Shown here in pieces: positions 28,544 to 57,283 of a stretch of 64,000 nucleotides of DNA; within the stretch, counting starts at the first letter, position 1, and every line of letters starts with the position of its first letter. Origin of the DNA: Tubiluchus corallicola (Eukaryota; Animalia; Priapulida); the NCBI GenBank assembly GCA_030141605.1, contig JAQGDQ010000329.1, forward strand, positions 62,001-126,000. Direction: 5' to 3'. The notes beneath the pieces were generated by a model. The model searched no databases, was not told where the DNA came from, and saw only the letters and a list, made by a program, of their open reading frames with translations. The position numbers were made by a program, and so were the translations under genes.

Positions 28544-31500
28544 TCAGGGGCGGGGGTAGATGAAAGTGGAGTCTGTGTAATTAGTATCAGATGCACAATG
28601 TGGAAGTTGAAACCTGTTATATTGATATTCTTTTAATTTCTTTTTAAAGTGGTGGAGAGATTCTATTTGTTTTATTTCACTGGGTAGTAAGTTCCATAAA
28701 TGTATGGCCTGTTTTGATATAGAGTTATTTCCAAATTTATTGTTTACTGTAATTTGCTTTAAATTGTATGTTCTAGTGTTTAAAGTGGTGTCAGGAATAA
28801 ATGCTAAGGGATTGTTTATAAATGGAATGCTCAGTTTATTTATATATTTATAAAGAAATATCAGTGTTTTGTAATCTCGATAGGCTTCTAATATTGGTAT
28901 TTTTGTGGACGTTCTTAAGCTTGTTGCAGAAGCAGCATGTTGTTTAGCAGTTTTGTTAGAGTAGCCATGAATTAATCTAAGTGCGTAGTTTTGCATTGTA
29001 TTTAGTTTTCTAAAGTTTTCATATTTAACGTTTTGAAGTAAAGTGCAACCATATAGATAATGTGGTAATATTAGACTTTTGTAGATGAGAATTTTTGTTT
29101 TCTTGGTTAGATGGCCTCTGGTTTGGCGTAAGAATGTCGTGCTTAATGCCATCTTGTTGTGTATTTGATGAAACTGTTCATCCCAAGTGAGTTTATTGTC
29201 GACAGCAATGCCTAAAAATTTTACAGTTTTTGCTTGTTCTATGGAACAGTCACCTACTTTTAGTGTTGCATTAGAAGAAGTAATGTCATTTGATTTGGGT
29301 GATATTACCATAAATTCTGTCTTATCATCATTCATTTTTAAACCAAAATAGTTAAATGCTGCATTTATATTTGTTATGTCTTTTTCTAGATTATTTTTTG
29401 ATGTTAGAAAGTCTGCGTGTGCTGTATAGAGTGTTGTATCATCGGCATATTGTGTTAAGTCTGAATTAAATAAAACTGAATGAATTTTATTAACGTATAA
29501 ACAAAAGAGTAATGGACCTAATATCGTACCTTGTGGGATGCCTCTCTGTGGTGTGTCCCATGTTGAAAAAGTGTGTTTGTTCAGCTTGACTCTTTGTTTT
29601 CTATTGTGTAGGTAATTATTCATTAGTTTGAGAGAAGTATAATCGAATCCTAGTTGGCGTAAGTTGTCTAGTAGTAAATTGTGATCGAGGCTGTCAAAAG
29701 CTTTACTTAGATCTAAAAATGCTGCTGTTATATATTTATTTTTATTTAAGTTGTAACGCCACTTTTCAGTGGCATCAATTATTGCGTCCATTGTAGAATG
29801 TAGTTTTCTAAAACCAAATTGATGATTTGACAGTAACTTATTATTTTCAATGTAATGGTTTATTTGGTTGTAGATAACTCTTTCAAATACTTTGGCTAGT
29901 ACGTGCACTACTGAGATTGGTCTGTAGTTTTTAGCGTCATCTTTAGCATCTTTCTTGTGTATTGGAGTTATGTTTGCTTGTTTACACACTGCTGGAAATT
30001 CTGAGCGTATTAAGACTTGGTTTGTGATATATGTTAGATGAGGAGTAATGATGCTGGCACAGTCTTTTAAGATTTTTATTGGCATGTCTGAGGGTCCACT
30101 TCCTTTATTTATATTTAAACTGTTTAATATTCTAAAGATGTCGTATTCTGTGACGCTAGTAAATGAGAAAGTGGATCGTATTACTGATTGGTTTTTGTAT
30201 ATATTGTGTATATTTGCATTATGTTGGTGTGGCAAGTTGTCAAATTTTCCGAGATTGATAAATGTGGAATTTAATTTGTTAGCAATGTCAACTGGATCAG
30301 ATATTATACTGTCATTTTCTCGTAAACTATTTATTTGTAATTGATCGTTTCTGTATCTGTTAAGTACGTCATTAATTAAACGCCATTTTTGCTTAGGTGT
30401 AGTTGCATCATTGCATTTATTAATATAATATTTATTTTTGAGTTTCCTGTTGTAGCTATTAAATTTATTTCGTGCCTTTTTGTAATTATTGTAATTGCTT
30501 TTACCTTTTAAATGTAAATATGTTCTATATAATTCATTTTTATTGTGTCTTAGTTTTGCGAGTTCTGTATCCGCCCAAGGGCAAGCAGATTTTGCATTAA
30601 ATTGCTGCTGATGTATTTTAATTTTTTTATACGGTGCATAGATATCCAGGCAGTATTCCATATTATTTATTAGTGTGTTTATTTGCATGTCAATGTCAGT
30701 CATTGTGTAAATATTACTCCAGTCCAATTTGGTTAAAGTATCTTGAAATATATCTTTATTATATGTAGAATAATCTCTGACTGTTTTCCAGACTGTGCCT
30801 GTATTGTTTTTGGTTGGTTCTTTTTTGTCTACTATTATTATAAAATCATGATCAGAATAATCACACGAGAAGTTTTCTTGTACTTGGAAATTGTCTTTAG
30901 CGTTTGAGATAAAGTGGTCTATGGTAGTAGATGATGTTTTAGTGATTCTTGTGGGTTTATTACTTGCGTTTAGTATTTGCGTGTTATATTGGGCCAAGAC
31001 TTCTTTATACTTTCTGCACTGAGCAGTATTTGTTGCATTAATATCGATATTAAAATCCCCATTAATAAAACTGGTTGATTTTCAAGTACAGCACGTTCAA
31101 GTTCAATTTCAAAATGTTTTAGAAAAGTTTTATATTTTTGATTTGGTGGCTTATAAATGACACCTACAATGTAGTTTTCGATATTGTACCAAATTGATTT
31201 TATTTTGTTAGTTTTAATTCTTTAGCTTCGTTAAATGACATGTGTTTTGGGATGTACATTGCAACCCCTCCTCCACGTTTATGTGTGGGACGGTCTCGAC
31301 GTATGAGTGTATGATGAGGCAGTTGTATGGAGGCACTAGGTATTTGCTTGTGTAGCCAAGTTTCGGTTATTCCAACGACTAAATTTTCAGATGAACGAAC
31401 TGTGTCTTTAAGCAATGCATGTTTTTTTTGTCAGACTTTGTATATTGATACATAGAAATTTCAAATTCTTTTTATGTTTTTGCATAAAATCTGCCAGCTC

Positions 31501-31600
31501 TACATCAATGTGGTTTTGCGTGGGGGGAGGGGGGTTGATTTAAGGGACCTGGATTGGTTTCAGTACAACCAATTATAAGCAACATTTTTAATACTGTTAG
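28544..31600 (-). CDS. LINE ORF2: AP endonuclease + reverse transcriptase (N-terminal part frameshifted)
   Basis: CINIQSL, VGITETWL, DR...GGGVAMYI, GVIYKPP, GDFNIDI, PTR...TIDHF, SDH; RT motifs NYRPIS, QFGFR, FLDLSKAFD, PQGTILGP, YADD, FLG; 817-aa open segment 28544-30997. Confidence 0.92.
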
Positions 31601-32031
31601 AAAATAATCATGGTTACAATTATTTTTAATTAGGTAGGGGAGTACACGTAATAAAGTAGGGGAGTACTGAAACTTGTAGTATAAATCTCTAGTATCTGAA
31701 AGTGTGCACTTTCTCACAGATGAATACTGTAAAATAGAAGCAGAATAGCAAAAATTTACGCACGAGTTATTTTCGATCCGATTTTGAGATATTATTACGC
31801 AGCAAGACGTGCATACACGTTTCAGTGTACCAGAGATTGGCACTGGACACATCTGTCTTGAGTTTGTACATTCTTTACACAATATTCGTTTATTTTGAGT
31901 AAAACTTAAAATTTTTCGTTTAAAATTCATGATTAAAATATATGTATATATATATATCACGCTTATTACAGTTATTTACAGTTTAGTTCACTCGTGTCAT
32001 CTTAAATAAACTGTTTAATAGTTTTCCAATT

Positions 32032-34121
32032 TTATAGAAACTTTGAAATGAATTCTTTTACTAATCCGGTAAACAGATTTTCAATTTCTGATTTTAATGC
32101 CTCTTTTTGAATGGGCTTAGTATCACCTGAAGGTTTATCAGAGTCATTTGCATAATTTACAGGAGTTGGTAATAATGGTAATCTTTTAACGGCATTCGCG
32201 TAACTAGCTGGTTTATAATTATATTGACAAAGTAAAGCCACGAGTAACTGTATCTTTGTTTTGATTAGTCTTAACTCTATACCATCGATTTGGGTCATTA
32301 AACAAACATAGTTTAATGCATTCTCGCAACTTTTGTACACCTAATCTACTCAGGTGTAATCCGTCTCTCGCAATTAAATTATCATCTTCAAAATGACATT
32401 GCAAATTGCACAAAATTGTATTAGTTTTAGTTGTCAGAGTTTCGAGTTCACTGTTAAATAATCGTAACACTCTATTCACCGAACTGATATTCATGGGTTT
32501 AGCAGTTGAATGTTTGTTTGTCTTTACAAATGGAATATTGCATACAAAAACATTACAAGGGTTAAACTTATTTTTTACACTTACAATGCATTGTTCCATT
32601 TGTCGTGTTAGTGACTTGAGTATTTCGTCTAGGTGAGCGTTCTGGTCGTTTTCTCGATTCCGTTGAATATGTTGTCTTACGTCATTGATTCCACACGTTA
32701 TGATAACGTTTTCCAATTTCTTCTCAGGGTATCGGTCTCGTACGAAGGCTGTCATTTCGTTCAGGTTTATCCCTCTGTAAGAATGCACCTGTAGATTTTT
32801 GGCTATTTCTTGAGGATTCAAGTAAGCGGTTCGGGAATCACCCAAGATTAAAGTTTCAGTTGATGTATTAATTTTTTTGCACGTTCGCGGCTTTGGTTTC
32901 TCCTCATTGTCGGTTTTGGTGNNNNNNNNNNGATGTAGTCAGTTTCGTGTCGCTAAGCTCACACTCTGTTATGTTACTGTTTGATGTGGAGGCAACTGCA
33001 TTTGTGTTTACGCTACTTGGTTCTTGATTATACACGTTCTTTGCATTCATTGTCACATTCATTGTTTCAGAAGCTGGTCTGTCTGCTTTTTCTTTTGCCT
33101 GTTGTGAAAAGCTGTAACCGTCTTTAATTGCTTTACTCATTCTTGCTTCTGTTTCATTTAATATCAAAAGCTCATCTCCGCACGTTTGTTGTGTCATAAG
33201 GCTATACAACTTTTCTATTTTTCTACTCAGTCGTTCTTCAGTTTCATTTATTTTTTGCCATACACTTTGCGGCGATTCGTTTTGTAGATAGTAGCTCAGT
33301 TTGTCGATTTTTCCATGTAGTAGTCTTAGGTCAAGCTCGCTTGATGTTTGAGTCTCACTTTGTTGTGTTTCTATGAGGTTATGCAGTCTGATAATTTCCT
33401 TATTCAGTGTTGTTTGTTCTGTGTAAGAAGCTCTAAGCTGTGCTTCTAGGCTTGTGACTTGACGTTGACTCTGTTTATTTTTAAATTGGAGTGTTAATAA
33501 TCGTTGTCCTAATTTCAGATTTTCACAGTCTCCGATGCAGACTGTTTTTGGAAAAATATCGTCATGTTCGGGCAGATCATCAAGGCTGTTGGAAATGAGA
33601 AGCGTTGTTTGTTCTCCATCAACTAAGTTATTCACATGCGAGTTGGCTTTCATAAACTCACTTTCCGTGTTAGAATGTAGTGGCTGCGGATTAATACATG
33701 TTAATGGAAACAACTTTTCTGTTACTGGCGGAGTGTCATATTCGGATTCTGACTCGTTATCTGATGTATCGGGATTCACAAACATCAGCGCTGGTTGGTT
33801 TTTAGGAGAGTTTTTATGGTCCTGATCACCAATAGTGTTTGGGAATTCATAATCAACGATTATGCTATGGTTGACCAAATCTTCTTCGTGATTTGACGAT
33901 TTTTGATTTGTTTCCTGTACAGTCTGTTTAATGAGTGTATTGCCGTACTGTTTATTGTAGCATTTGTCGCAAAGCTTTTCTCCACAGGCTCGAAGCTTTA
34001 ATGACTGTTGTATGGTTTTGCATTTTTGGCAACTTTTCCTGGTCTTTGTCTGGGGTTTAGAGAGAGGTGCTGGGCTGGTTAGCTCATCAACGTCTTTTGA
34101 CATATCCATTGTCCTAGCCAA
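32032..34121 (-). CDS. LINE ORF1: Cys-rich finger, coiled coil and SGNH/GDSL esterase domain
   Basis: CQKC...CGEKLCDKC; heptad-rich middle; GDS, GxND (CGINDV) and DGLH blocks of the SGNH fold seen in CR1/L2 ORF1; spans an N-gap and a frameshift. Confidence 0.8.
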
Positions 34122-34411
34122 TGATGCGTCGGTGTGTATACAGTTAACAGGTAACGATGTTGTCGTACTAGTTCCAGTCGACTAGATTACACACCAATCC
34201 TTTGCTATTTTTTGAATAGTTTTTCGTTAATAATTCAAAAACCACTTGAATTTTCACCAAAATTCTCACATATTCAGGTACTGCACACGTTTATGCACAT
34301 GTACATATAACTTTCCATTACTAGTTTCAGCAAAAAAGTTTAGTAAACACAGTGACAATCAGAGCAACAAAATTACGTCCTAACTGCACGCCGCTCCTCA
34401 TTTTAAAATGA

Positions 34412-35478: not shown

Positions 35479-37849
35479 CAAGGACTACTATACAACAGGA
35501 CGTGCACGCTCAGATCTCTGATTCGGCTAGCGGAGGCGATAAATTTTTAACATTTAGTGCTAATAGTTTGCACATATTTACCCCCCATGGTGACCTATAG
35601 CATGCCACAATACACATAGAACATATTCCTCATTCGTCTAGTAATTTAAAAACAGTGGTACCTATGATATCCCCCCCCCCTCCCAAAAAAAACACACCAT
35701 ATCTGCAACTCATTGTGTCCCGATGATTACCTGTCACTTTCTATAGAGAATAAACAGACTGCACCATTTTGTCAGGACTATATAAACTCATTCATAGGTT
35801 CCTCTGTGTAAATTAGAATACATGAAATTATTGCACTCACCATTTTGCAGAGATGTTTGCGACAATTAGTCGGCTAGTCGCGCCTTCTTAATGGAGGTCT
35901 GGTAAAGGGCTGAGTTCTGCTGGTGATCCTTCTCCAAATTGTGTAGCCGATGCAGCAGTACATGCGCCAGGCGTCTCAGAGCATTTCTTGAAAATTCTCC
36001 AAAATCAAAGTAGGCATTGATTATGGAGAGGATGTTCATGAGCTTGTTGCAGCAGCAGACTGTGTGAGTTGACTTCTTCGCAAAACACAAGCCAGTTGTT
36101 ACGAATTCGAACGTGAATGTGTGGGGCACTGTAAGACCTCCCCTAGACACTTCTTCAATGAACATTTTCATTTCCTCAGAAAGGAGAGGCTCATCCTCGG
36201 GAAAAAAAATGTCATTTTGGCACTTACTCTCCAACCAACCTGCGACATATGCACACGCGTTCAGTTCAGTTTTGGAAAGAGTCTGGTCAACACAAATCTC
36301 CATAATTTTGGCATCCTCGAAATCAATCCCATTGCATGTGTGCAACTGGATTTCGGATGATGTGTCTGTGTCCACAAACTCCAGGAATGATGCAGAAAAA
36401 CGCGCCAGTCTCCGCTTGAATGCTGAACAGACATCTCCAGTTTGCATGAATGCATCGGCCCCCCTTGACTGCCTGTAAACTGAGAACTCACCCTCTATTC
36501 TGTCACAGTGTTTCTGCTCAGAGCTTTTTACTTTCTGAAATGTTTTACCTAGCACCTTGTCAATATCTGTCGATGAAATAACTGACTGCAGCTTTCTTTT
36601 GCTGGGTGACACTAAAAAGTCACGCAGTTGTTCGTAATTGCAATGGGGAAATGACTCTATTGCAAAGTAATAATCAGACACTGTGAAAGTCTTATCACAT
36701 AATAGTCGAAGCTGTCGTGTTAGAAATTTGAGCTTCTTGGCTTTAGCATTAACACTATGAGATTGTTCTCGATTTTGAGCTAGTTCAAGTTCAAGAGACT
36801 TTGTCACTTTGTTGACAATATCATCAACATGATGAATGTGGTTGACAACAGAATTCACAACCGCGAAAAATTATGAGGAAGAGGACAGCCCATTGTTCGG
36901 ACTGAGGATTTTAGTGATCCCGTTTTTGAAAGCATACAGAGTAAGAGGGGAACACAAGGTAGGCTTATTGTGAACAATAATTGACATATAATATTGACTG
37001 TGGTCCTCTTCCATGAACATGCACACAAATTTGTCTTGTGTGCGAGATATAATGAGGTTCTGATACATCTTATGCAGGTCTTTCTCAGGAGTGAATTCAT
37101 TGAGAGAAGTTATTTTATCCTTTTTAAAGAAATAATTCAGCTGCTGGTCCTCAGTTTTTGGAGGGCGAGGTGGTGGCTTTGGAGTGGGCAAGCATGATGT
37201 TGGAACGTTGAAAATACTGGGTGGATCCACTGGCCTGGTGTGATCACCTGGAATTTTGACCATTTGAGTATCCGATGGCCAATGCTTTTCGCAAATGAAA
37301 AATTTCGTTGGATCAACAACAAAGCCTTCGCGTGGGGGGAAGAACACTTAGCCATTTCTGTTTTTCTACATGATCTCTTGGCAGTCTGAACACACGACAC
37401 TTGTTCTCCGTGTCATAGTTACCTTTGCATTTAACAACACCACACTTGTTAGGCATGCTGCTGAGCACAGATGTATAAAATCCACGAGAAATTTTGAAAA
37501 TAATCCTCAAAGAACAAACACAAGCATGAAAACAACGCTTCACTTGACTTTCAAGTTTCCCACAATGACAAAGCACTACTTCCGGTAAAATAAACTTACG
37601 CCTAAAGTAGTGCGCTATTTAAGAAGTAAAAATGAACACTAATTTCCTTTGATACATAAAATAAACAATTGGTACTTTTCTCCCGTAATGTAAAGAACCA
37701 ATTAAATGAAAAATAATACTCGCTATCTACCGATCCGCCCATTCTTTAATTTTCAAGATCACTACTCTCTACGTTCATACAAGTATAGATCGCCTCCGCT
37801 GGCGGAATCAGAAATCTGAGCGTGCACGTCCTGTGTATAGTAGTCCTTG
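35479..37849 (-). mobile_element. P-superfamily (THAP) DNA transposon, internally deleted, non-autonomous
   Basis: ~60-bp TIRs starting CAAGGACTACTATAC; 8-bp TSD AATTATAT (35471-35478, 37850-37857); THAP C2CH domain MPNKCGVVKC...W...ICEKHW...PSIF. Confidence 0.92.
35866..37456 (-). pseudogene. THAP/P-element transposase remnant
   Basis: ATG at 37456, frameshift in a poly-C run at ~37335, in-frame TAA at 36871-36873; jumps from ...KVKSSEQKHC directly to DRIEGEFSVYRQSRG, so most of the catalytic core is missing; C-terminal YVAGW motif. Confidence 0.85.
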
Positions 37850-40050: not shown

Positions 40051-40221
40051 CTAGCCAAGTTTTCTATTCAAAATGTCCCACGAGGGCAAAATTAAATCAC
40101 CATTCTGTATACTAAGTGTAAAAACTTCATACGAAGTAAATAAAGATGTCCTCCAAAAATGGAGTGAAACTAATATTCCACATACCTTCCCCAAAGTATG
40201 AGGAGAGAAAAACAAGTCTGT
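40051..40221 (+). repeat. Segmental duplicate of ~62107-62285
   Basis: ctag(c/t)caagttttctattcaaaatgtccca...gaggagagaaaaacaagt shared. Confidence 0.9.
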
Positions 40222-40240
40222 NNNNNNNNNNNNNNNNNNN

Positions 40241-40327
40241 CGGCATGTTCCTGACCTCCACGTGGTGTCGCGCGGGCAACAGATGATGGACCCGAGGGTT
40301 ATCAAATGATTCTGGCTGACTAGGAAC
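40241..40327 (+). ncRNA. HDV-like self-cleaving ribozyme at the LINE 5' end
   Basis: P1 [NNN]cggc/gtcgcgc; P2 gttcctg/taggaac; P3 acc/ggt; L3 tccacgt; P1.1 cc/gg; gcaac J1.1/4; P4 hairpin cag..tgat..accc/gggt..atca..ctg; J4/2 gctgac with putative catalytic C at 40316. Confidence 0.88.
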
Positions 40328-40838
40328 ACCCTGGCTGCTGGGGAATGAACAAGGATGGGGCGTGGTGGGAGAATTAGGAACTCAGGAACAAGCGAAAGCG
40401 AGAAGCCTGTTTTCTCCGAAGTCTTCCCCATTCCGTAATCTGAGTCTGTCCTCCAAAGGCCACCGGCTGTCATGAACCTTGTCTCTAAAGGCGGGGGAGG
40501 GAAAGGAACCTATGACGGAATCTCATCGTGAAGGAGGGTACAGGTCTAAAACGCGCTCCGTGCCGCGGCCACGAGGTAGTTCTAGAGGCCCGCTCCTGGT
40601 CTAGCCACCTGGGAGGGCTGCCTCCGTCAACTCGTGAAAATCTCCTCGCACTCGTAGCTCCAGTTGGCGACTGGATAGGGGCCTGCGAGTGCGTTGGGGG
40701 GGCATTCCCGAGGCCACCTTTCGTTGACAAGTCCGTCAGTACTAGGTCCCTGATCTCTTCCGGTCGGAGGGGGCTGGTGAGTGCCAGTCGGCTCCTGGGT
40801 TGGAGTTTACCCGCTTTAAAAACCAACAAACTTATGAA

Positions 40839-42200
40839 ATGAACGAGAAAGAAAAATCGAGTCCAGCACGGCTCCCTACCCTAACAAAATTAAAACCTGC
40901 TGGGAACAAGCCGGTGAAAGCCGGATCTTCCCGTCATCAAAATTTAAACGAAGCTGCAGGGAACAAGCCGGTGAAAGCCGGATCTTCCCGTGAACCAGAT
41001 TTGAAACCAGAACAGCCGAAAATTACGGAGTTCTTGGAAGAAACGAAAACTGAGGACATGCAAGTCTCTGAAAAAGGGAATCCATGGACTACAAAGACCA
41101 GTAAAGGTTCGGCATCGTCAGAGTATACTCTGAACACCGTACCTGCCGCAGAAGGAGTAGATACCCGGAATCCTGGTGCTCCAAATGAGCCCAGCAAGCC
41201 CGAGGAATCGAAACCGATGGGGAAAAATCATGAAAAAAACCGGCGGAAGAAGGAAAAGAGACGACTTCTGAAAGGTGTGTCGGCTATGTCGATCGCCAAT
41301 CAGGAGGAGGCTCCCACTCCTAACCCATCGGTGGTGAAAAAGAGAACGAGCAGCGCTCTCTCAACTCCAAGTCCGATCTCGAACGTGAAGCGACCCCGGG
41401 GTGACTCCGGGCAAGCGGGGCGTAAGGGAGAGGAAGGTCAAAAGGGTGAAGGCACAGAAGGAAGCAGTAAGGCCTCATACGCCAAGGCTGTGAAGTCTGG
41501 CGGCCAACACCTTAAAATTACAAAAAAGGACGCGGGAGAAGACCCTCTGGACGGCTCGGATTTACGGGCAATACAGTCGGGGATCAACCGTGTCCTTCTC
41601 AGAACGGATCCGGGGTTTCTTGTCCGCATTGAGAGGACCTACCTACATGAAGGTAAAGTCCATGTCGTGTGCAAGGACGAGAAAACCCTGGAGTGGGCAA
41701 AACAGCTTGTCCTGGACATTGAAAACCCATCTGTGGGCCACCCGGGGTACGAGGCGAGAGGACCGAAAGATCTTCCGCCAGCAAGGACCTTCGGGGTTTG
41801 GATTCCGGATGAGGATGATATCAAAATCGAGGATCTGCTGATGTTGGTGGACCGATGTAATTCGGAACTCCAACGGAAGCACATGGAGGTCCGCGGTGGG
41901 TCAAAAGGGGTCGGCGGAATGCTACACGTAGTAGCGGTCTGGGACCCGTCCCTGTCAGGTCTGGAACGACTGGAGTTTGCTCCGTACGCCGGATGCAAAC
42001 GAGTCACGTTCCAGTCCAAAAAGAAAAAGAAAAACCAAGGGAAAGCCAAGGAACCGGAAACACCTGTTCAAACGGTGGATAAGGGTCCAGAAGTGAGTAC
42101 CGAGGGTGGAAACACCCCCGACGTTGCCACTGGAACAAAGGAGCTGCCGTCTGTCGAGCAATCGCAGATGAAGGCACCCGAGTCCAGTATGGAAACGTAA
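40839..42200 (+). CDS. LINE ORF1 (gag-like, basic, LOA/DUF4780-type C-terminal region)
   Basis: Uninterrupted ORF with first ATG at 40839; lysine-rich NLS-like stretches, SYAKAVK, ...LEFAPYAGCKRVTF; ends 12 nt before ORF2. Confidence 0.82.
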   Translation: MNEKEKSSPARLPTLTKLKPAGNKPVKAGSSRHQNLNEAAGNKPVKAGSSREPDLKPEQPKITEFLEETKTEDMQVSEKGNPWTTKTSKGSASSEYTLNTVPAAEGVDTRNPGAPNEPSKPEESKPMGKNHEKNRRKKEKRRLLKGVSAMSIANQEEAPTPNPSVVKKRTSSALSTPSPISNVKRPRGDSGQAGRKGEEGQKGEGTEGSSKASYAKAVKSGGQHLKITKKDAGEDPLDGSDLRAIQSGINRVLLRTDPGFLVRIERTYLHEGKVHVVCKDEKTLEWAKQLVLDIENPSVGHPGYEARGPKDLPPARTFGVWIPDEDDIKIEDLLMLVDRCNSELQRKHMEVRGGSKGVGGMLHVVAVWDPSLSGLERLEFAPYAGCKRVTFQSKKKKKNQGKAKEPETPVQTVDKGPEVSTEGGNTPDVATGTKELPSVEQSQMKAPESSMET

Positions 42201-42212
42201 ATACAGAAAAGT

Positions 42213-45200
42213 ATGGGAACAGGGGCTAAAGTAAAATCCCGGCCGCAGACAGTCTTCGGTGGAAATACCCACGGTAGATTGAATGTTATTTCCGGGGACA
42301 ATTTGGATAAAATAGGTGAGAAGCCAGCACAAAGTGTCTCTGGTATTGAGTGCTGGCAAATCAATCTTCACAAAAGCAAAGCTGCGAGTTACAACTTGCA
42401 GGATGTTGTAAAACACATACGTACCGGGTTAGTCTTTGTACAGGAACCCTGGACGCACGGTGGGGAAGTTAGGGGTAAACTCCGAGGATGGGATCTGTTC
42501 CAGGGAAACCGGAATGGAGAAAGGCCTCGGGCGTGCATTTATGCCACTCCTAACCTAAAATGCTTTTTACTTCCAGTGTTCTCGAATACAGACATTGTGG
42601 TGGTTAAAGCAAAAAATGTGTGCCGGGATGGAGATGAGTTCATTTTCGCCTCGGCATACATGGTGCATGATCAACCGGCTCCCCCTATGTTACTCAGGGA
42701 ACTGATATCATTCGGGGACGGTGATAAAACTCCAATTATTGTGGGGACTGATGCTAATGCGCATCATACGTTATGGGGTTCCACCGATGTCAACGACAGG
42801 GGTGAGGAACTCTTGGAGTATTGTGCAAGCGCTAATCTTGAGTTCTGTAATGTTGGCCGTAAACCAACGTTCCGAACAAAAGCAAGAGAAGAGGTGCTAG
42901 ACTTGACACTGAGGAATCTGCATGCAGGGGACATAGTATGCGATTGGTATGTCAGTGACGTGCCATCGCTGTCTGACCACATGTATATAAGATTCCTAGT
43001 GAAAAGCAGTATTTCAAAAGAAAACCCACTTATCAGGAACATCCGCCGTACTTGCTGGGAAAAGTATGCGGAAGAACTTGAGCATAAACTTCCAGAACTG
43101 AACCGGGAATACAAGGTGTCCTCCAATGAGGATATTGAGGATTTGGCTGATGAAGTTCAGGCTGCTGTTATTCATTCTTATGAAACTGCTTGCCCATTAC
43201 GTAGGCAGAGGAAGAAGGATGGGAACAAATGGTGGAATCCGGAGCTAAGCCGTCTCCGCAAGGAGGCGCGCAGGGCTTGCAGGAGAGCCACTAAGACTAA
43301 AAATCAACGAGACTGGGAAACAAGAAAGCTAACCCAGTCTATATTCAAAAACGCCGTCCGGAAGGCGAAACGCCAATCCTGGCGGAGTTTCACGGAAAAG
43401 ATGGAAGATCAGGCACCAACTGCTAGGTTGGTAAAGGTCCTCCGCCGAAATAAAGCAGCGCAATTAAGCTGTGTGTATAAAGAAGACGGTAAATTAACCA
43501 GTTCACCGGAGGAAACTTTAAACCGGCTCCTCGACACCCTATCACCAGGGAGTCGAGTAACGGAACCAGACACATCCACGGACTTGCCTGTTTGCGCGAC
43601 CGTGGATGAGGAATTCATCGCTTCCATTTGCTCGGAAGAACGAGTGAAAGCGGCACTGTTTGAATTCCAACCTTTCAAGGCTCCGGGACCGGATGGTATA
43701 TATCCAGTCCTGTTGCAGAAAGGATGGAAATACATTAAAAAACACTACCTCATGCTTTTCCAGACATGTCTCAGGTATGGTTATGTACCGAGATCCTGGA
43801 AGGAAGGGAAAGGAGTATTTTTGCCGAAACCCGGAAAGAATAGCTATTTAGAAGTCAAGTCTTTCCGGATGATAACATTAACGTCATTTCAACTGAAATG
43901 GTTGGAGAGAATAGTCCTCTATCAATTGAACGAGGATACTGAATTACAAGCAAGACTATCCAATGTGCAGTATGGCTTCCGCGCAGGCGTTTCCACGGAA
44001 ACTGCTCTGCACGAGTATGTACAGCGTATTGAACGTAGTCTTGCTAAAAAGAAGCTCTCACTAGGTGTCTTTTTGGATATTGTTGGGGCATTTGATAACG
44101 TTTCTTTTAATAGCATATCCGCCGCATTGCTTGAACTTGAGGTATCGCCAGTTCTTATCCGCTGGATTGAGAACATGGTAAGGTGCCGTACGGTCCAAGT
44201 AGAGCTGTGTGATGCCACGGTAAAGAGGGAAGTAGTAAAGGGAAACCCCCAAGGCGGAATACTGTCTCCCTTGCTATGGAACTGTGTATTGAACTCTCTG
44301 CTTAGGGAATTTGAAGAAAATGGAATTTATGCACAAGCCTATGCCGACGACCTGGCAGTACTAATAGCTAGTGCGAACGTATCGACGGTCAGAAGGAGGG
44401 CGCAAAATGTAATTAACATTGCTGCTGACTGGTCCAGGAAAACTGAACTAGAATTCAGCAGTAGTAAGACCGAAGTAATCATGTTCACAAACAAGAGAAA
44501 TCCAAATATTGGGGATCTCTGGATGAATGGACAGAAGCTCCAACTCTCCAATGAAGCGAAACTGCTAGGGGTAACCCTAGACAGTAAACTGACTTGGAAG
44601 AGCCATATAACACGGGTCACCAACAAAGCGACGGCGGCACTTATGCAATGCAGACAAATTGTTGGTAAAACGTGGGGTATCCAACCGCGGATCATGAAAT
44701 GGATATACACGGCAATGGTGCATCCTTTCATGACGTATGCGTGTGTGTCCTGGGTCAGCGGGTTGGAAAAAATGTACCTCAGGAAAATGCTCCAGAAAGT
44801 ACAGAGATTAGCATGCTTAATGATTTCTTCAGCGTTCCCAAGTACTCCTACCGGTGCATTGGAGATGTTGTTGAATATCACACCAATAGATGAGTTCATT
44901 CGGTCGGAGGCGGTCCGAGGGTCATACCGTATAGATACGGCGGGGCTCTGGACAGCGAAGACCGTGGGAACTTTTGGTAAGTCTAAAAGTCATATCGATG
45001 TGTGCAATAGCTATAGGCGCGACCTCCAACTGTTGCATATGCCGGGTGATTTAAGAAAAAGAACACGCGTGTTCGAAAGAAATTTCGAATGCCAGATTCA
45101 GGAAAGAGAAATCGCTATCAAATCGGAAGGCGAAATGGATAGGAACTGTTTCAGGTGTTATACCGATGGTTCCAAACTGGGCGGAACGATCGGTGCAGGT

Positions 45201-46010
45201 ATACGTATCGAGTATCCGACTGAGTCCAGAGTATTGGAGGAGTTCTTCTATCTTGGGAAATTGAGTACTGTTTTCCAGGCAGAAGTTTTCGCCATCTCAC
45301 AAGCGGCGGAGATAATGTCTTCGGAAGGACTCCAGAATCAATCAATAGTCATCCTGTCAGACAGCCAGGCGGCTATTAAAGCTATTGAAAACAATACAGT
45401 AAAATCTATCTCGGTTTTACGTTGTGTTGAAAACTTGAACATACTTGGAAAAAGAAACCGAGTCTTGGTTACATGGATTCCTGGACACGAAGGAGTACAT
45501 GGTAACGAAGAGGCGGACAAGCTTGCTAAAAAGGGATCTGAGCTCTCTCCGGAGGGACCAGAACCCTATCTGCCCGTCCCTTACGCTAGCTGTGTCTACG
45601 CGATTAAGGGATGGAGTCTAAAACGATGGTAAACGTCGTGGAATAATCGTGAGGACTGCAAGAGAACAAAGGAACATGTGGGCTGGGCCTCGGCCCGAGT
45701 CTGCAATAGGCTCCTGAGTCTCAGTAGAACTCAACTCAACATGGTTATACAGGTCCTAACCGGACACTGTAATCTCCAAAAACATAAAAAAACCACTTGT
45801 CGAGCACAATCCGCGATTTGCCCGAAATGTGGTCAGGAAGACGAAACACCGGACCATCACGTGGGACGATGCACCGCCTACCAGGGTGCTCGTATCAAAT
45901 GTCTGGGAAATAAAAATACAACACTTAGAGCAGTTGTAGAGAACTTAAACCTGAAAAAACTAGCGGCGTATCTGAAGCAAGCTGGAAGGCTTGCCGAGTA
46001 CGACCAATAG
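42213..46010 (+). CDS. LINE ORF2: APE endonuclease, RT, RNase H and C-terminal Cys/His knuckle, with one in-frame TAA at 45630-45632
   Basis: QINLH, VQEPW, DANAHH..WGS, SDH; KAPGPDG, QYGFR, FLDIVGAFD, PQGGILSP, YADD, LLG; RNase H YTDGSK, QAE, SDSQ, WIPGH.G..GNE.AD; CPKC...ETPDH...C continues in the same frame after the stop. Confidence 0.95.
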
Positions 46011-46125
46011 ACGCATAGCAGTGAATAATTGCAATGGCCCTGTCGAAGGCCTCAGCAATGTGTCGGGGGGTGGGATTTTTCCATCCTATACAATCTCCCC
46101 GACACCACTGCCCCCCTAAACTAAA

Positions 46126-47140
46126 CATGTGTGTAAGGCACATATGCATGGTCTGTATGTGCGTGTACATGCGTGCATATTTATTTATACATCTAATAAG
46201 GTATACAACTTAAAATGCACCCGTAAAGTTCAAAAGTTAAATGTTTATATAACATACATCTGCCACATCATTTATTAACACTAATGAAAGGTATAAGCAC
46301 ATCACAAAAGAGCTAAAGTGAGATACCTGTGAAAAAATATAGCTAAAATATCTAAAACAGGTTCTAAATAATGCACAGTGCATTTAGCTGGGTTGACAAA
46401 ACTTCCTATTTAAGAGAAATTCTGGCTACAGGGTAAAGTCTTTAGCTTGCAGTTCTATAAATGCGAGGCTGCATTTCATGAATCTGCAGAAAGTCTTGAG
46501 ATTTTATGAATAACCGTTAGTAACACGGAGAATGATCATACTAGAAAAGTAATCAACTAATGCATATAATTAAAAATATTTTAAAATGTGACACTAATTT
46601 AGGAATTTGTAACTACAGGCCAATACACTTCTATACACATAGTAAAATAAGCTACAGCATTTGTTTTCATAATAAGTGAGAGTATGGCGTTTTACAAGCA
46701 TCAGCTTGGCAAGTAATCTGCCACTGAAAGCTAAAAGCCAGGTTGCACAGTGCCACACTATTTTAGAGATGGTACTTTACGGGTACTACTAAATGCTCTT
46801 TACTACAGTCCAATCATCTTTTGTAATCAAAGATCAGCACAGCACAGTAATTTATGGACACACACTATTACATAATGTAAACAGCTGATTGGCCAGAGTG
46901 TGTTTTTAGTGGTCGAGCTCAAGCAACGTCGTGACTGGTCAGTGAATGGATGGGTGACCAACAAGTCTGACCTATATTTATTTTAGTTTAATTTGCAATA
47001 CAGATTCTGGCTGTTTATCACTATCAGTGCACATAGACATTAACACACAAACATAATGTCAAATATACTTATCTGTCTTATTTCGTTTATTAAAGAAATA
47101 TCGTAAAATGACAGCAGAGTTGAATTCATATTTCCCATTT
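46126..47140 (+). repeat. Segmental duplicate of ~62290-62510 plus 63130-64000
   Basis: Long, highly similar collinear sequence. Confidence 0.93.
46912..46959 (+). repeat. 5S rRNA-derived fragment (SINE3-like head); second copy ~63770-63817
   Basis: cgagctcaagcaacgtcgtgactggtcagtgaatggatgggtgacc resembles the 5S internal control region (box A, IE, box C tggatgggtgacc); not a full 5S gene. Confidence 0.55.
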
Positions 47141-54700: not shown

Positions 54701-56281
54701 TTTTAAATCAGTTATTAGCTGGCAATACATGATTTGTACATACTTGACAACACTATTTACATCTGACGGCATTATACATATGTGAAAAAAATCACGTTTT
54801 TTCAATATCTTAGGGTCAGTGTTAGTGTTAGGATTATTTCTTTTTTCCACGTAGCATTATTACCTGGATTCAATTAAACTTACTGTGTATTAGTAAAGTA
54901 CTTTTCGTTTATTGCAGTGAAAACAGTTACACTACTTCAGTTGCTGGTGTAATTTTAGCAGTTCACTTACAAATTTCATATTTATGTGAACTTCTATGCC
55001 ACTAAGGCAACCTTTAACAATTGATTATTGATCCAATATGAAAAGAAAATGTAAAGCATAATGAGCACTAACATGGGAATTTTCTTGTGAAATTCAGCAT
55101 CATAACAAACGCTACATTAGATTATTAGTTCTGAAATAAAACAAGTACAAGAATCTCCATTTAATTTGACACTCACTTGTCGACTACTATTCTCGTATTA
55201 ATTCTGGTTTTTATTCATTTATTCCTCACTCTTTTTATTTCTCTAATAACTGGTAAATGCACAAGGCTAGGGTCACAAAACTGACAGAGTACTCTCATCA
55301 CCTAGGGGAATTTATGTTTATATGTCACTTGTCACTCCCGGACCAGAGGTTACTCAGTGGTTGAGATCTTGCACATGTGCCATGTATGTATGGGAAAATT
55401 TTCCATGGAGCGAGGACGAAAAACGGAAATTGACAGTAGGGGAAAGAAGTGAGACAAGGGACGAGCAACAGTAACTTATAGCATATCAAATAAAGGTCTC
55501 GACGAGGCAAACTGAACGACAAGAGTTATGCACAGATTGGTTTATATCTGATTCACCTAAGGGCAAAAACCAAAATTGGATGTGCCAGGGATACAAATAC
55601 CCCCAATGTCGAACAAGTAACCATGTAATATATCAAATGAAAGGATTAATGAAAGGAGTTGAATAGTATAAATTACACCAACATTGGTCACAAGCGAAAG
55701 TTACAAATTCCGATTTTAATACCTTGTGGTACATCAAATGAAAGGTCTCAACAAAACAAACTGAATGGTAAGCATGAACCAAGATTGGTCCCAGGTCAAA
55801 GATAAAAAAATTTGAACTTTGAATTTCACTAAAACAAAATGCAATTCCTAGCACATTCAATAGAATCAATATAGTGACCTTCAGTACCTTAACCTAGATT
55901 AGGGGGGCGTAAAAGTGACCAGGCCCGATTTCATTGAGTCTATTAATGTCAAGCACAACAGTGCCTTATGTACACTGTTAATTATTTTGAAGAACATCTT
56001 CTATATGTTAACATGAAACAAAAGCTGCCACTTAAAAGCATCTCTAGCCACAGAAGTAGAATCTTATCACAGATTCTGACACGGTCAAGAATGTCCACTA
56101 GTTCTGACATTATTAAGCTCAATGTTAAATTATCTCTTCATCCATGACCATGCACATTCCGTAAACTGACTTTCCTTTTTATCCATGCAACTGTTCTGGA
56201 ACACTCTGCATAAACCTACAAAGTGCACTATCATAAAAGTAACGATGTTCATTATATTATGTTACAGAATATACTATAAAG

Positions 56282-57283
56282 ATGAACTGCTCTGAACTTG
56301 AGATTGCAGACTGCAATGATACAAACACATCTTTTTCACATCCTTGGAATATGAGGACCATTGCTCTAAGATGCCTTCTCTCTGGAATGGTGATACTCCT
56401 CAACAGTTTAGTTCTTATAGTATTCCTGACTGGCAGACACAGCAGTTTCAAAGATGTCAAATACTTCTTCTTGTCACTACTGGCAGCATCAGATCTCATC
56501 ACTTCATTGCTGTATATGCTGTATACAATATTCACGTACATGAAATACCCGATCTTGAGTATTAACAGTAGCAAAAACTTTTGCCTCTGGTCAAGATCAG
56601 TTATGCCATTTTCTTCTGTCATATCAGCATTTTCTTTACTGGCAGTAGCAGTAGATCAGTATATAGCTATAGTTCATCCATTTCACTATCAATACGTTTC
56701 TAAAAGAAAGGCTCTGGTAACAATGGGAGTAATAGTCATATATGCTACTGTTTTCGCCCTAATGCCACTCGTAGACATAGGAGTTACAGATGAGGAACTT
56801 ACCACATGTTTGGTTCACAAAATGTACACTTTCGGATACCAACTTATGCTGGTAACAACAATGTTTTTCCTTCCTCTCTTTATTATAATGTGTCTGTACT
56901 TAAGAATATTTATTGTAGCACACCACCAAATTCAGGCAATTGGTGCTCAAGCAAATCAAGCACTAACCACACCCTATTCTTCTTTCAAGACTGAAATGAA
57001 GGTGGCAAGAACAATATCACTTCTGATTATATCATTAATTATATTCTGGCTACCAGTCAGTCTTGCACTACCAATCAATGCATACTGTGGCTATGAGAAG
57101 TGGCCATTAAGGCGAGTGGGACCATTTATGATAGCCAACTCGCTGATTAACCCTCTTATTTACACTGTTCGTTACAGAGAATTTAGATCAGCTTGTAAAC
57201 GCATACTGTACTGCCACTCGGGGTGGCATGAGAATGAAATAAGTATGAATATCATAAATGGTCCTATTGTAAGCACCATTTGA
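56282..57283 (+). CDS. Intronless class A (rhodopsin-like) GPCR, 333 aa, orphan
   Basis: Seven hydrophobic segments; N-terminal NxS/T sites; TM1 N (LLNSLV), TM2 LAASD, TM3 AVDQY..IVHP, TM5 P/Y, TM6 FWLP, TM7 NSLINPLIY, helix 8 FR..C. Confidence 0.95.
   Translation: MNCSELEIADCNDTNTSFSHPWNMRTIALRCLLSGMVILLNSLVLIVFLTGRHSSFKDVKYFFLSLLAASDLITSLLYMLYTIFTYMKYPILSINSSKNFCLWSRSVMPFSSVISAFSLLAVAVDQYIAIVHPFHYQYVSKRKALVTMGVIVIYATVFALMPLVDIGVTDEELTTCLVHKMYTFGYQLMLVTTMFFLPLFIIMCLYLRIFIVAHHQIQAIGAQANQALTTPYSSFKTEMKVARTISLLIISLIIFWLPVSLALPINAYCGYEKWPLRRVGPFMIANSLINPLIYTVRYREFRSACKRILYCHSGWHENEISMNIINGPIVSTI

What the first reader, a model, noticed from the sequence alone, without database searches (positions are those of the whole stretch)
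40241..40327. HDV-like self-cleaving ribozyme at the 5' end of a LOA-like retrotransposon
Seen: the first ~87 nt after the gap parse fully into the nested double pseudoknot: P2 gttcctg/taggaac, P3 acc/ggt, L3 tccacgt, P1 3' strand gtcgcgc, GG for P1.1, the gcaac linker, a P4 hairpin and J4/2 gCtgac. Known: HDV-like ribozymes process the 5' ends of several non-LTR clades (R2, L1Tc, RTE, LOA/Baggins). Inference: this copy is 5'-complete and can be cut out of read-through host transcripts. P1 pairing predicts that the last three bases hidden in the N-gap are GCG, with cleavage just before that G.
Basis: partly seen in the sequence, partly recalled or inferred. Interest (0 to 1): 0.8.

Follow-up and report, generated by a model that had tools for sequence, protein, structure and literature searches.

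The report
Self-cutting RNA heads a LOA retrotransposon
The first 90 bases of this full-length jumping gene match the base-pairing pattern of the hepatitis-delta type of self-cutting RNA and likely trim the element's RNA out of longer host transcripts, which makes it a new but ordinary example of an arrangement already published for this class of elements.

Summary
Confirmed. A zero-mismatch descriptor finds this one site in the window and none in 17.64 Mb of shuffles. Rfam's HDV model matches only weakly (21.8 bits, E 3.4). A high-depth contig begins exactly 3 nt before 40241. The gap length fits a 13-15 bp target-site duplication plus those bases (inferred). The element has a DUF4780 ORF1 and an endonuclease-RT-RNase H ORF2 with one premature stop. 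Three distant DUF4780 relatives carry the same core at their heads with wholly different stems. Cleavage and expression are untested. LOA is already listed among LINE clades with 5' ribozymes (PMC5786205). This scan reported HDV-headed RTE and Vingi elements on other DNA, none like this sequence. New member of a known kind; interest 0.3.

The parts
40222..40240 (+). N run; inferred to hold 3 flank bases, the 5' copy of the target-site duplication and the first three ribozyme bases
   Evidence: 19 N; loose ends in X1 and X3; arithmetic 3+13+3=19 is inference, no contig shown bridging it
40238..40328 (+). HDV-like ribozyme; predicted cleavage 5' of G at 40238, the element's inferred first base
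   Evidence: sister copy GCG; contig starting 3 nt before 40241
40241..40244 (+). visible 4 nt of the P1 5' strand (pairs 40267-40270, one G-U)
40246..40253 (+). P2 5' strand (8 bp with 40321-40328, one G-U)
40254..40266 (+). P3 stem and 7-nt L3 loop
40267..40275 (+). P1 3' strand and the GG of P1.1 (pairs the CC at 40258-40259)
40280..40314 (+). P4 hairpin with a 6-nt bulge
40315..40320 (+). J4/2 with predicted catalytic C40316
   Evidence: aligns to the C of the Rfam HDV consensus; C in 3 of 3 relatives with the core
40369..40390 (+). two extra copies of the P2 3' strand (40375-81, 40383-90); the first is preceded by a J4/2-like hexamer with A at the catalytic position; possible decoy
   Evidence: weak against shuffles
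40839..42200 (+). ORF1, DUF4780 (PF16012); nine ATGs lie upstream in the 5' UTR
42201..46010 (+). ORF2 (first ATG 42213): endonuclease, RT, RNase H; premature stop at 45630-45632 cuts off the last 125 aa with the CCHC-type motif
46060..46124 (+). 3' UTR stem (9-bp arms 46060-68/46097-105) and a short TAA-containing tail
46125..46137 (+). 3' copy of the inferred target-site duplication (13 bp, or 15 bp counting a 2-nt microhomology with the element's start)
   Evidence: loose ends of left-flank contigs run into this sequence

Best explanation
This is a full-length LOA-like LINE retrotransposon whose first 91 bases match the HDV-like double-pseudoknot pattern and likely self-cleave just before the element's first G, which would free the element RNA from a longer host transcript and fix its 5' end. 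Steps: (1) a host transcript runs into the insertion (inferred); (2) the fold forms during transcription and C40316 with Mg2+ cuts 5' of G1 (fold pattern shown; chemistry inferred from the HDV family); (3) the uncapped RNA is translated, possibly helped by the structured head since nine ATGs precede ORF1 (inferred); (4) target-primed reverse transcription copies the RNA to its cut end, so full-length copies begin at G1 behind unrelated flanks (junction seen in one sister copy, shared start seen in contigs) inside a short target-site duplication (inferred). This copy's ORF2 is cut short, so it probably needs a sister copy's protein to move again.
For: All core elements present with no mismatch; 0 hits in 17.64 Mb of shuffles. 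GCG before CGGC in a sister copy with a different flank. A contig of depth 1100 begins exactly 3 nt before 40241. No differences listed over 40241-40345 in 4 of 4 runs from 2 studies. The same P3/L3/GG/J4/2 core with entirely different P1, P2 and P4 stems lies 1.6-1.85 kb upstream of ORF2 in L065, L072 and L067, all with a DUF4780 ORF1; in L065 the contig starts 3 nt before its G1. Control descriptors with the catalytic C changed give 0 (G), 0 (U) and 1 (A, the window's own decoy) against 4 for C in 493,999 nt, both strands. LOA/baggins 5' ribozymes are published.
Against: No cleavage assay. Rfam score far below the cut-off. Folding z-score unremarkable. J4/2 has G two places after the catalytic C where the Rfam consensus and all 3 relatives have A. 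Pseudoknot-free folding loses native P2 for transcripts ending at 40375-40420. Only 3 of 84 related loci show the core (38 have at least 1500 nt upstream of ORF2), and the closest loci L002 and L003 do not (their 5' ends may be missing). L067 lacks a P1 5' strand. The descriptor was tuned after those hits were seen; the first strict one found 0 of 76 loci. Some contigs (X1 record 4, X3 record 10) do not match at or before 40241 and their letters were not shown.
Confidence: 0.8

Rival explanations
1. The fold is a genuine HDV-like head but is slow or silent in this family: the G in J4/2 or the downstream copies of the P2 3' strand block cleavage, and the shared 5' end is inherited from an ancestor or set by an internal promoter.
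For: J4/2 departs from consensus at one place. One decoy duplex is stronger than native P2 (-13.9 against -10.5 kcal/mol). Well-folded SIDER ribozymes proved inactive and downstream sequence inhibited others (PMC4035085 passages).
Against: Catalytic C and the following constrained A are kept, and R2 ribozymes tolerate J4/2 variation (PMC3774820). Every visible pair is intact in a young family. Native P2 has probability 0.99 or more until about 40345 and 0.96 or more again from 40450.
Confidence: 0.12
2. The head is kept mainly for a non-cleaving role (internal promoter, translation entry site or ORF2-protein binding site), with cleavage incidental.
For: Nine upstream ATGs. HDV-like heads of R2 and L1Tc are reported to aid translation or bind protein (PMC6765202 passages); L1Tc bears an internal promoter (abstract listing).
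Against: The catalytic C and L3 are conserved across relatives of 36-38% ORF2 identity while the stems are not, which fits selection on catalysis. These roles do not exclude cleavage.
Confidence: 0.06
3. A chance match in a GC-rich 5' UTR.
For: Rfam E-value 3.4; a relaxed descriptor gives 130 plus-strand and 156 minus-strand hits in the loci.
Against: 0 hits in 17.64 Mb of shuffles; position exactly at the element's 5' end; the GCG prediction came true in a sister copy; same core in 3 relatives.
Confidence: 0.02

Closest known systems
5' HDV-like ribozymes of LOA-clade LINEs (baggins; Ruminski et al. 2011, not held, known here through PMC5786205, PMC6765202 and PMC3774820 passages)
   Same: HDV-like fold at the exact 5' end of an RNase H-bearing LINE; cleavage at the element's 5' end is stated for baggins; LOA is named among six clades with such ribozymes.
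   Different: A different, unnamed family: 38% identity to the Lian-Aa1-named protein; it sits on its own branch of 11 rows, apart from the branch holding the one named insect protein in the tree. Whether the 2011 paper or its supplement lists this family could not be checked.
HDV ribozyme, Rfam RF00094 (and the CPEB3 and drz-Agam relatives)
   Same: Compact build with 1-2 nt J1/2; P3/L3, P1.1 GG, linker and catalytic C align to the model.
   Different: 21.8 bits against a cut-off of 50; first P1 pair G-C rather than G-U; G in place of A in J4/2; longer bulged P4; chromosomal, not viral.
R2 and L1Tc/ingi 5' ribozymes
   Same: Likely the same job of releasing element RNA from a co-transcript; a 2-nt microhomology at the 5' junction fits the model for elements cut at their own 5' end (PMC3774820).
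   Different: Other LINE clades; R2 is rDNA-specific and often cuts upstream in 28S; this element inserts in unrelated flanks.

Membership tests
HDV-like ribozyme | P1 of 6-7 bp starting at the cleavage site | tested here: met
   4 pairs visible in the window; 7 of 7 pairs in the sister copy with GCG. The window's own three 5' bases are partly inferred.
HDV-like ribozyme | P2 of at least 5 bp, 3-bp P3, L3 with conserved U-C-C and G, P1.1 | tested here: met
   limits from PMC3774820 section 16
HDV-like ribozyme | catalytic C first in J4/2 followed by a constrained A | tested here: met
   C40316 and A40319; one non-consensus G between them
HDV-like ribozyme | score at or above an Rfam family's gathering cut-off | tested here: not met
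   RF00094 21.8 bits against 50. This lowers membership of that Rfam family only; relatives also miss it, and three P1 bases are N.
HDV-like ribozyme | covariation of stems among homologs | tested here: inconclusive
   4 sequences with different but pairing P2 (4 of 4) and P1 (3 of 4) stems, read by descriptor; too few and too unlike for a column-wise test (alignment misplaces the 3' halves)
HDV-like ribozyme | Mg2+-dependent self-cleavage lost in the C-to-U mutant | not testable with these tools
   needs an in vitro assay
LOA clade LINE | two ORFs; ORF2 with AP endonuclease, RT and downstream RNase H | tested here: met
   RNase H in known LOA elements per PMC2790886 passage. Other I-group clades also have RNase H (recalled), so this is not sufficient.
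LOA clade LINE | RT phylogeny inside the clade of LOA, Bilbo, Lian and Baggins | tested here: inconclusive
   No named reference was available. 38% identity over 984 aligned positions to P0280, whose UniRef name is Lian-aa1 retrotransposon protein; another hit of that search carries an R1 name. The quick tree has no named LOA rows and a long-branch outgroup.
Full-length, recently inserted LINE copy | target-site duplication on both sides | tested here: inconclusive
   Left-flank contigs run into the sequence at 46125 onward and the gap length fits, but the 5' copy lies in the N run and no bridging contig was shown

The most novel reading that the evidence does not exclude
The head is a timed switch: two downstream copies of the P2 3' strand, one preceded by a J4/2 mimic with A at the catalytic place, displace native P2 once about 45-60 more bases are made and are themselves sequestered some 60 bases later. 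The element would then cut itself out of host transcripts only in defined windows set by polymerase speed or pausing, on a LOA-like branch apart from the named insect elements.
Probability: 0.08. Interest if true: 0.55.

Novelty: new member of a known kind. Interest (0 to 1): 0.3.

Why it matters
It adds a compact, intact HDV-like ribozyme on a LOA-like lineage, with three more candidate heads from related DUF4780-ORF1 elements, all missed at Rfam's cut-off. It supports the view that ribozyme processing is common in this clade, and gives a ready in vitro test with a natural J4/2 variant. It does not change the known picture, because LOA is already counted among ribozyme-headed LINE clades.

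Tried and rejected
No genome is held for the window, so copies could not be counted or their junctions listed. No RNA holder listed; this says nothing on expression. Run X2 has no cover over 40080-40235; not used. Contig depths are not taken as copy numbers. Rfam at gathering level: 0 hits in 20 of the first 76 loci; L065 1-400 gave only weak HDV-type matches (14.9 and 14.7 bits, E 2.6 and 2.7). Strict descriptor: 0 of 76 loci; medium: 1 of 76; relaxed: noise on both strands. L064 3743 looked like a core but was rejected: no GG for P1.1 and far upstream in flank-like DNA. L080 200-560 was inspected and could not be parsed. Viral contigs: no relative among 33 candidate stretches. The careful tree did not finish; the quick one was used (90 rows: window, its other LINE, 12 chosen of 120 proteins, and loci with at least 200 RT residues). 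The decoy idea is weak: at least one such site in 83 of 300 shuffles, two in 13 of 300; a downstream site stronger than native P2 in 1 of 3 relatives. A homolog search with the GPCR gave 2 unnamed weak hits, so the host group is not determined. Cluster look-up gave no useful names for close relatives. Bacterial promoter scan: 0, not relevant. Literature searches with no result: 'LOA clade'+'non-LTR'+'ribozyme' and 'DUF4780'+'retrotransposon'; one search returned unrelated papers. Ruminski 2011 is not held.

Full report
Observation. The window has a 19-base N run at 40222-40240, followed by the motif as described: CGGC 40241-44, P2 40247-53/40321-27 (8 bp with 40246/40328), P3 40254-56/40264-66 around a 7-nt L3, P1 3' strand 40267-73, GG 40274-75, linker 40276-80, C at 40316. 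ViennaRNA, which cannot model pseudoknots, recovers P2 and P3 in the best structure of 40241-40330, and P4 in 40274-40320, but the energy is not unusual (z -0.57, 56 of 200 shuffles as good). Rfam aligns the stretch end to end to the HDV ribozyme model, with C40316 on the catalytic C, at only 21.8 bits (E 3.4, cut-off 50). My descriptors find this one site on either strand of the window. Allowing one mismatch gives 3 hits in 2.35 Mb of Markov resamples; requiring no mismatch and only the four visible P1 pairs gives 0 in 17.64 Mb. The descriptors were written knowing this site.

The gap. No genome is held. Four public runs from two studies hold the element (X1, X3 and X4 are one sample and may be the window's source). 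In X1 a 34-letter contig of depth 1100 begins exactly 3 letters before 40241, as expected if copies share sequence from the predicted G1; an X2 contig reaches 5 letters before 40241, and two 35-letter contigs (X1 record 4, X3 record 10) match only from 40242, with unshown letters before, so a variant exists. No other letters were listed over 40241-40345 in 4 of 4 runs. From the left, an X3 contig runs past 40221 for 49 letters; of the 30 shown, the last 27 equal window 46125-46151, the DNA right after the element. This is an empty site (other haplotype or a paralogous flank). An X1 contig stops 18 letters past 40221, where empty and filled forms would part. Three flank bases, a 13-bp duplication and GCG add up to the 19 N. 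That is an inference; no bridging contig was shown. It implies a 13-15 bp target-site duplication, a 2-nt microhomology at the 5' junction and a young insertion.

The element. It spans about 40238-46124. ORF1 (first ATG 40839, stop 42200) carries DUF4780; ORF2 follows in the same frame with endonuclease, RT and RNase H. A stop at 45630-32 precedes a 125-aa tail with a CCHC-type motif; 6 of 6 homologs shown align through it at 57-66% identity, so this copy is damaged or misassembled there. Nearest proteins are unnamed (60-67% for the best five). ORF2 is 38% identical over 984 aligned positions to a protein UniRef names Lian-aa1 retrotransposon protein; Lian is a LOA-clade element and known LOA elements carry RNase H (PMC2790886, passages). 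LOA-like is therefore reasonable, but clade membership was not tested with named references.

Relatives. Scans gave 76 metagenome loci (best 80 kept of 550 confirmed) and 8 from genome contigs; 38 of the 84 have at least 1500 nt upstream of ORF2. Three show the same core 1.6-1.85 kb upstream of ORF2: L065 (P1 6 pairs plus a mismatch, G1 at the contig's fourth base, P2 12 bp), L072 (7-bp P1 with G1-U, long J1/2, 8-nt L3) and L067 (no P4, P1 5' strand absent). All three have a DUF4780 ORF1. L3, GG and the catalytic C are kept while P1, P2 and P4 sequences differ entirely. A core descriptor, tuned after these were seen, gives 4 hits with C and 0, 0 and 1 with G, U and A at the catalytic place in 493,999 nt on both strands; this control follows PMC10879173 (passages). 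The other 81 loci show no core, including the closest, L002 and L003; many lack 5' ends, but loss or a variant fold is possible. Rfam found nothing at cut-off in 20 loci tried.

Mechanism. Shown: the pairing pattern, its place at the element's head, GCG in one sister copy, and the conserved core in distant relatives. Inferred from the family: cleavage 5' of G1 by C40316, release from a host read-through transcript, help with cap-independent translation (nine ATGs precede ORF1), and copying to the cut end. Cautions: J4/2 has a G where the Rfam consensus and 3 of 3 relatives have A, though R2 ribozymes keep little there beyond the C and one A (PMC3774820, passages and sections 15, 16, 18). Two further copies of the P2 3' strand at 40375-81 and 40383-90 compete in folding models: the native pair has probability 1.00 and 0.99 for transcripts ending at 40330 and 40345, 0.53 at 40360, 0.00 at 40375-40420, and 0.96-0.99 from 40450 (no pseudoknot modelled). 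Two such sites arise in 13 of 300 shuffles, and only 1 of 3 relatives has a comparable one, so this is a weak lead. Downstream inhibition and inactive look-alikes are reported for trypanosomatid ribozymes (PMC4035085, passages).

Known status. PMC5786205 (passages) names LOA among six LINE clades with 5' self-cleaving ribozymes; PMC6765202 (passages) and PMC3774820 name baggins. PMC7761336 (passages) adds nothing on LOA. The primary paper, Ruminski 2011, is not held, so it and its supplement may already list this family. Two searches pairing LOA clade or DUF4780 with ribozyme or retrotransposon terms found no paper. Earlier notes of this scan describe HDV-headed RTE and Vingi elements in other genomes; none resembles this sequence.

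Verdict. A real, intact HDV-like head on a young, full-length LOA-like LINE; likely active (0.8), untested; new member of a known kind; interest 0.3.

Noticed in passing
window 42198-42215: ORF2 follows the ORF1 stop in the same frame, first ATG 12 nt later; could be reinitiation or read-through. One insect relative (P0104) is annotated as a single DUF4780-endonuclease-RT-RNase H protein.
   Followed up: no
window 40834-40842: A start-Lys-stop mini ORF whose stop overlaps the ORF1 ATG; nine ATGs precede ORF1.
   Followed up: no
window 45630-45632: Premature stop in ORF2 before the C-terminal CCHC-type motif; homologs read through. Mutation or assembly error not decided.
   Followed up: partly
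window 28544-34181 (- strand): A second, distant LINE with an RT ORF and a GDSL esterase-like ORF, with a 10-N run at 32922-32931; no HDV core found by the descriptors.
   Followed up: partly
window 56243-57283: Single-ORF rhodopsin-family GPCR with only two weak homologs at 25-26% identity.
   Followed up: partly
window 35866-37347 (- strand): Two in-frame ORFs split by one stop, no Pfam match; reads like a decayed transposase gene (impression, not tested).
   Followed up: no
L065:4-178, L072:45-288, L067:1727-1773: Three further HDV-like heads on DUF4780 LINEs: L065 and L072 complete with long J1/2; L067 minimal, without P4 and without its P1 5' strand.
   Followed up: partly
L077-L084: LINE relatives inside bacterial genome records, most likely host DNA contamination of those assemblies.
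   Followed up: no
L074:5280-5540: Tandem repeats of about 45 nt in the 3' UTR of a related element.
   Followed up: no
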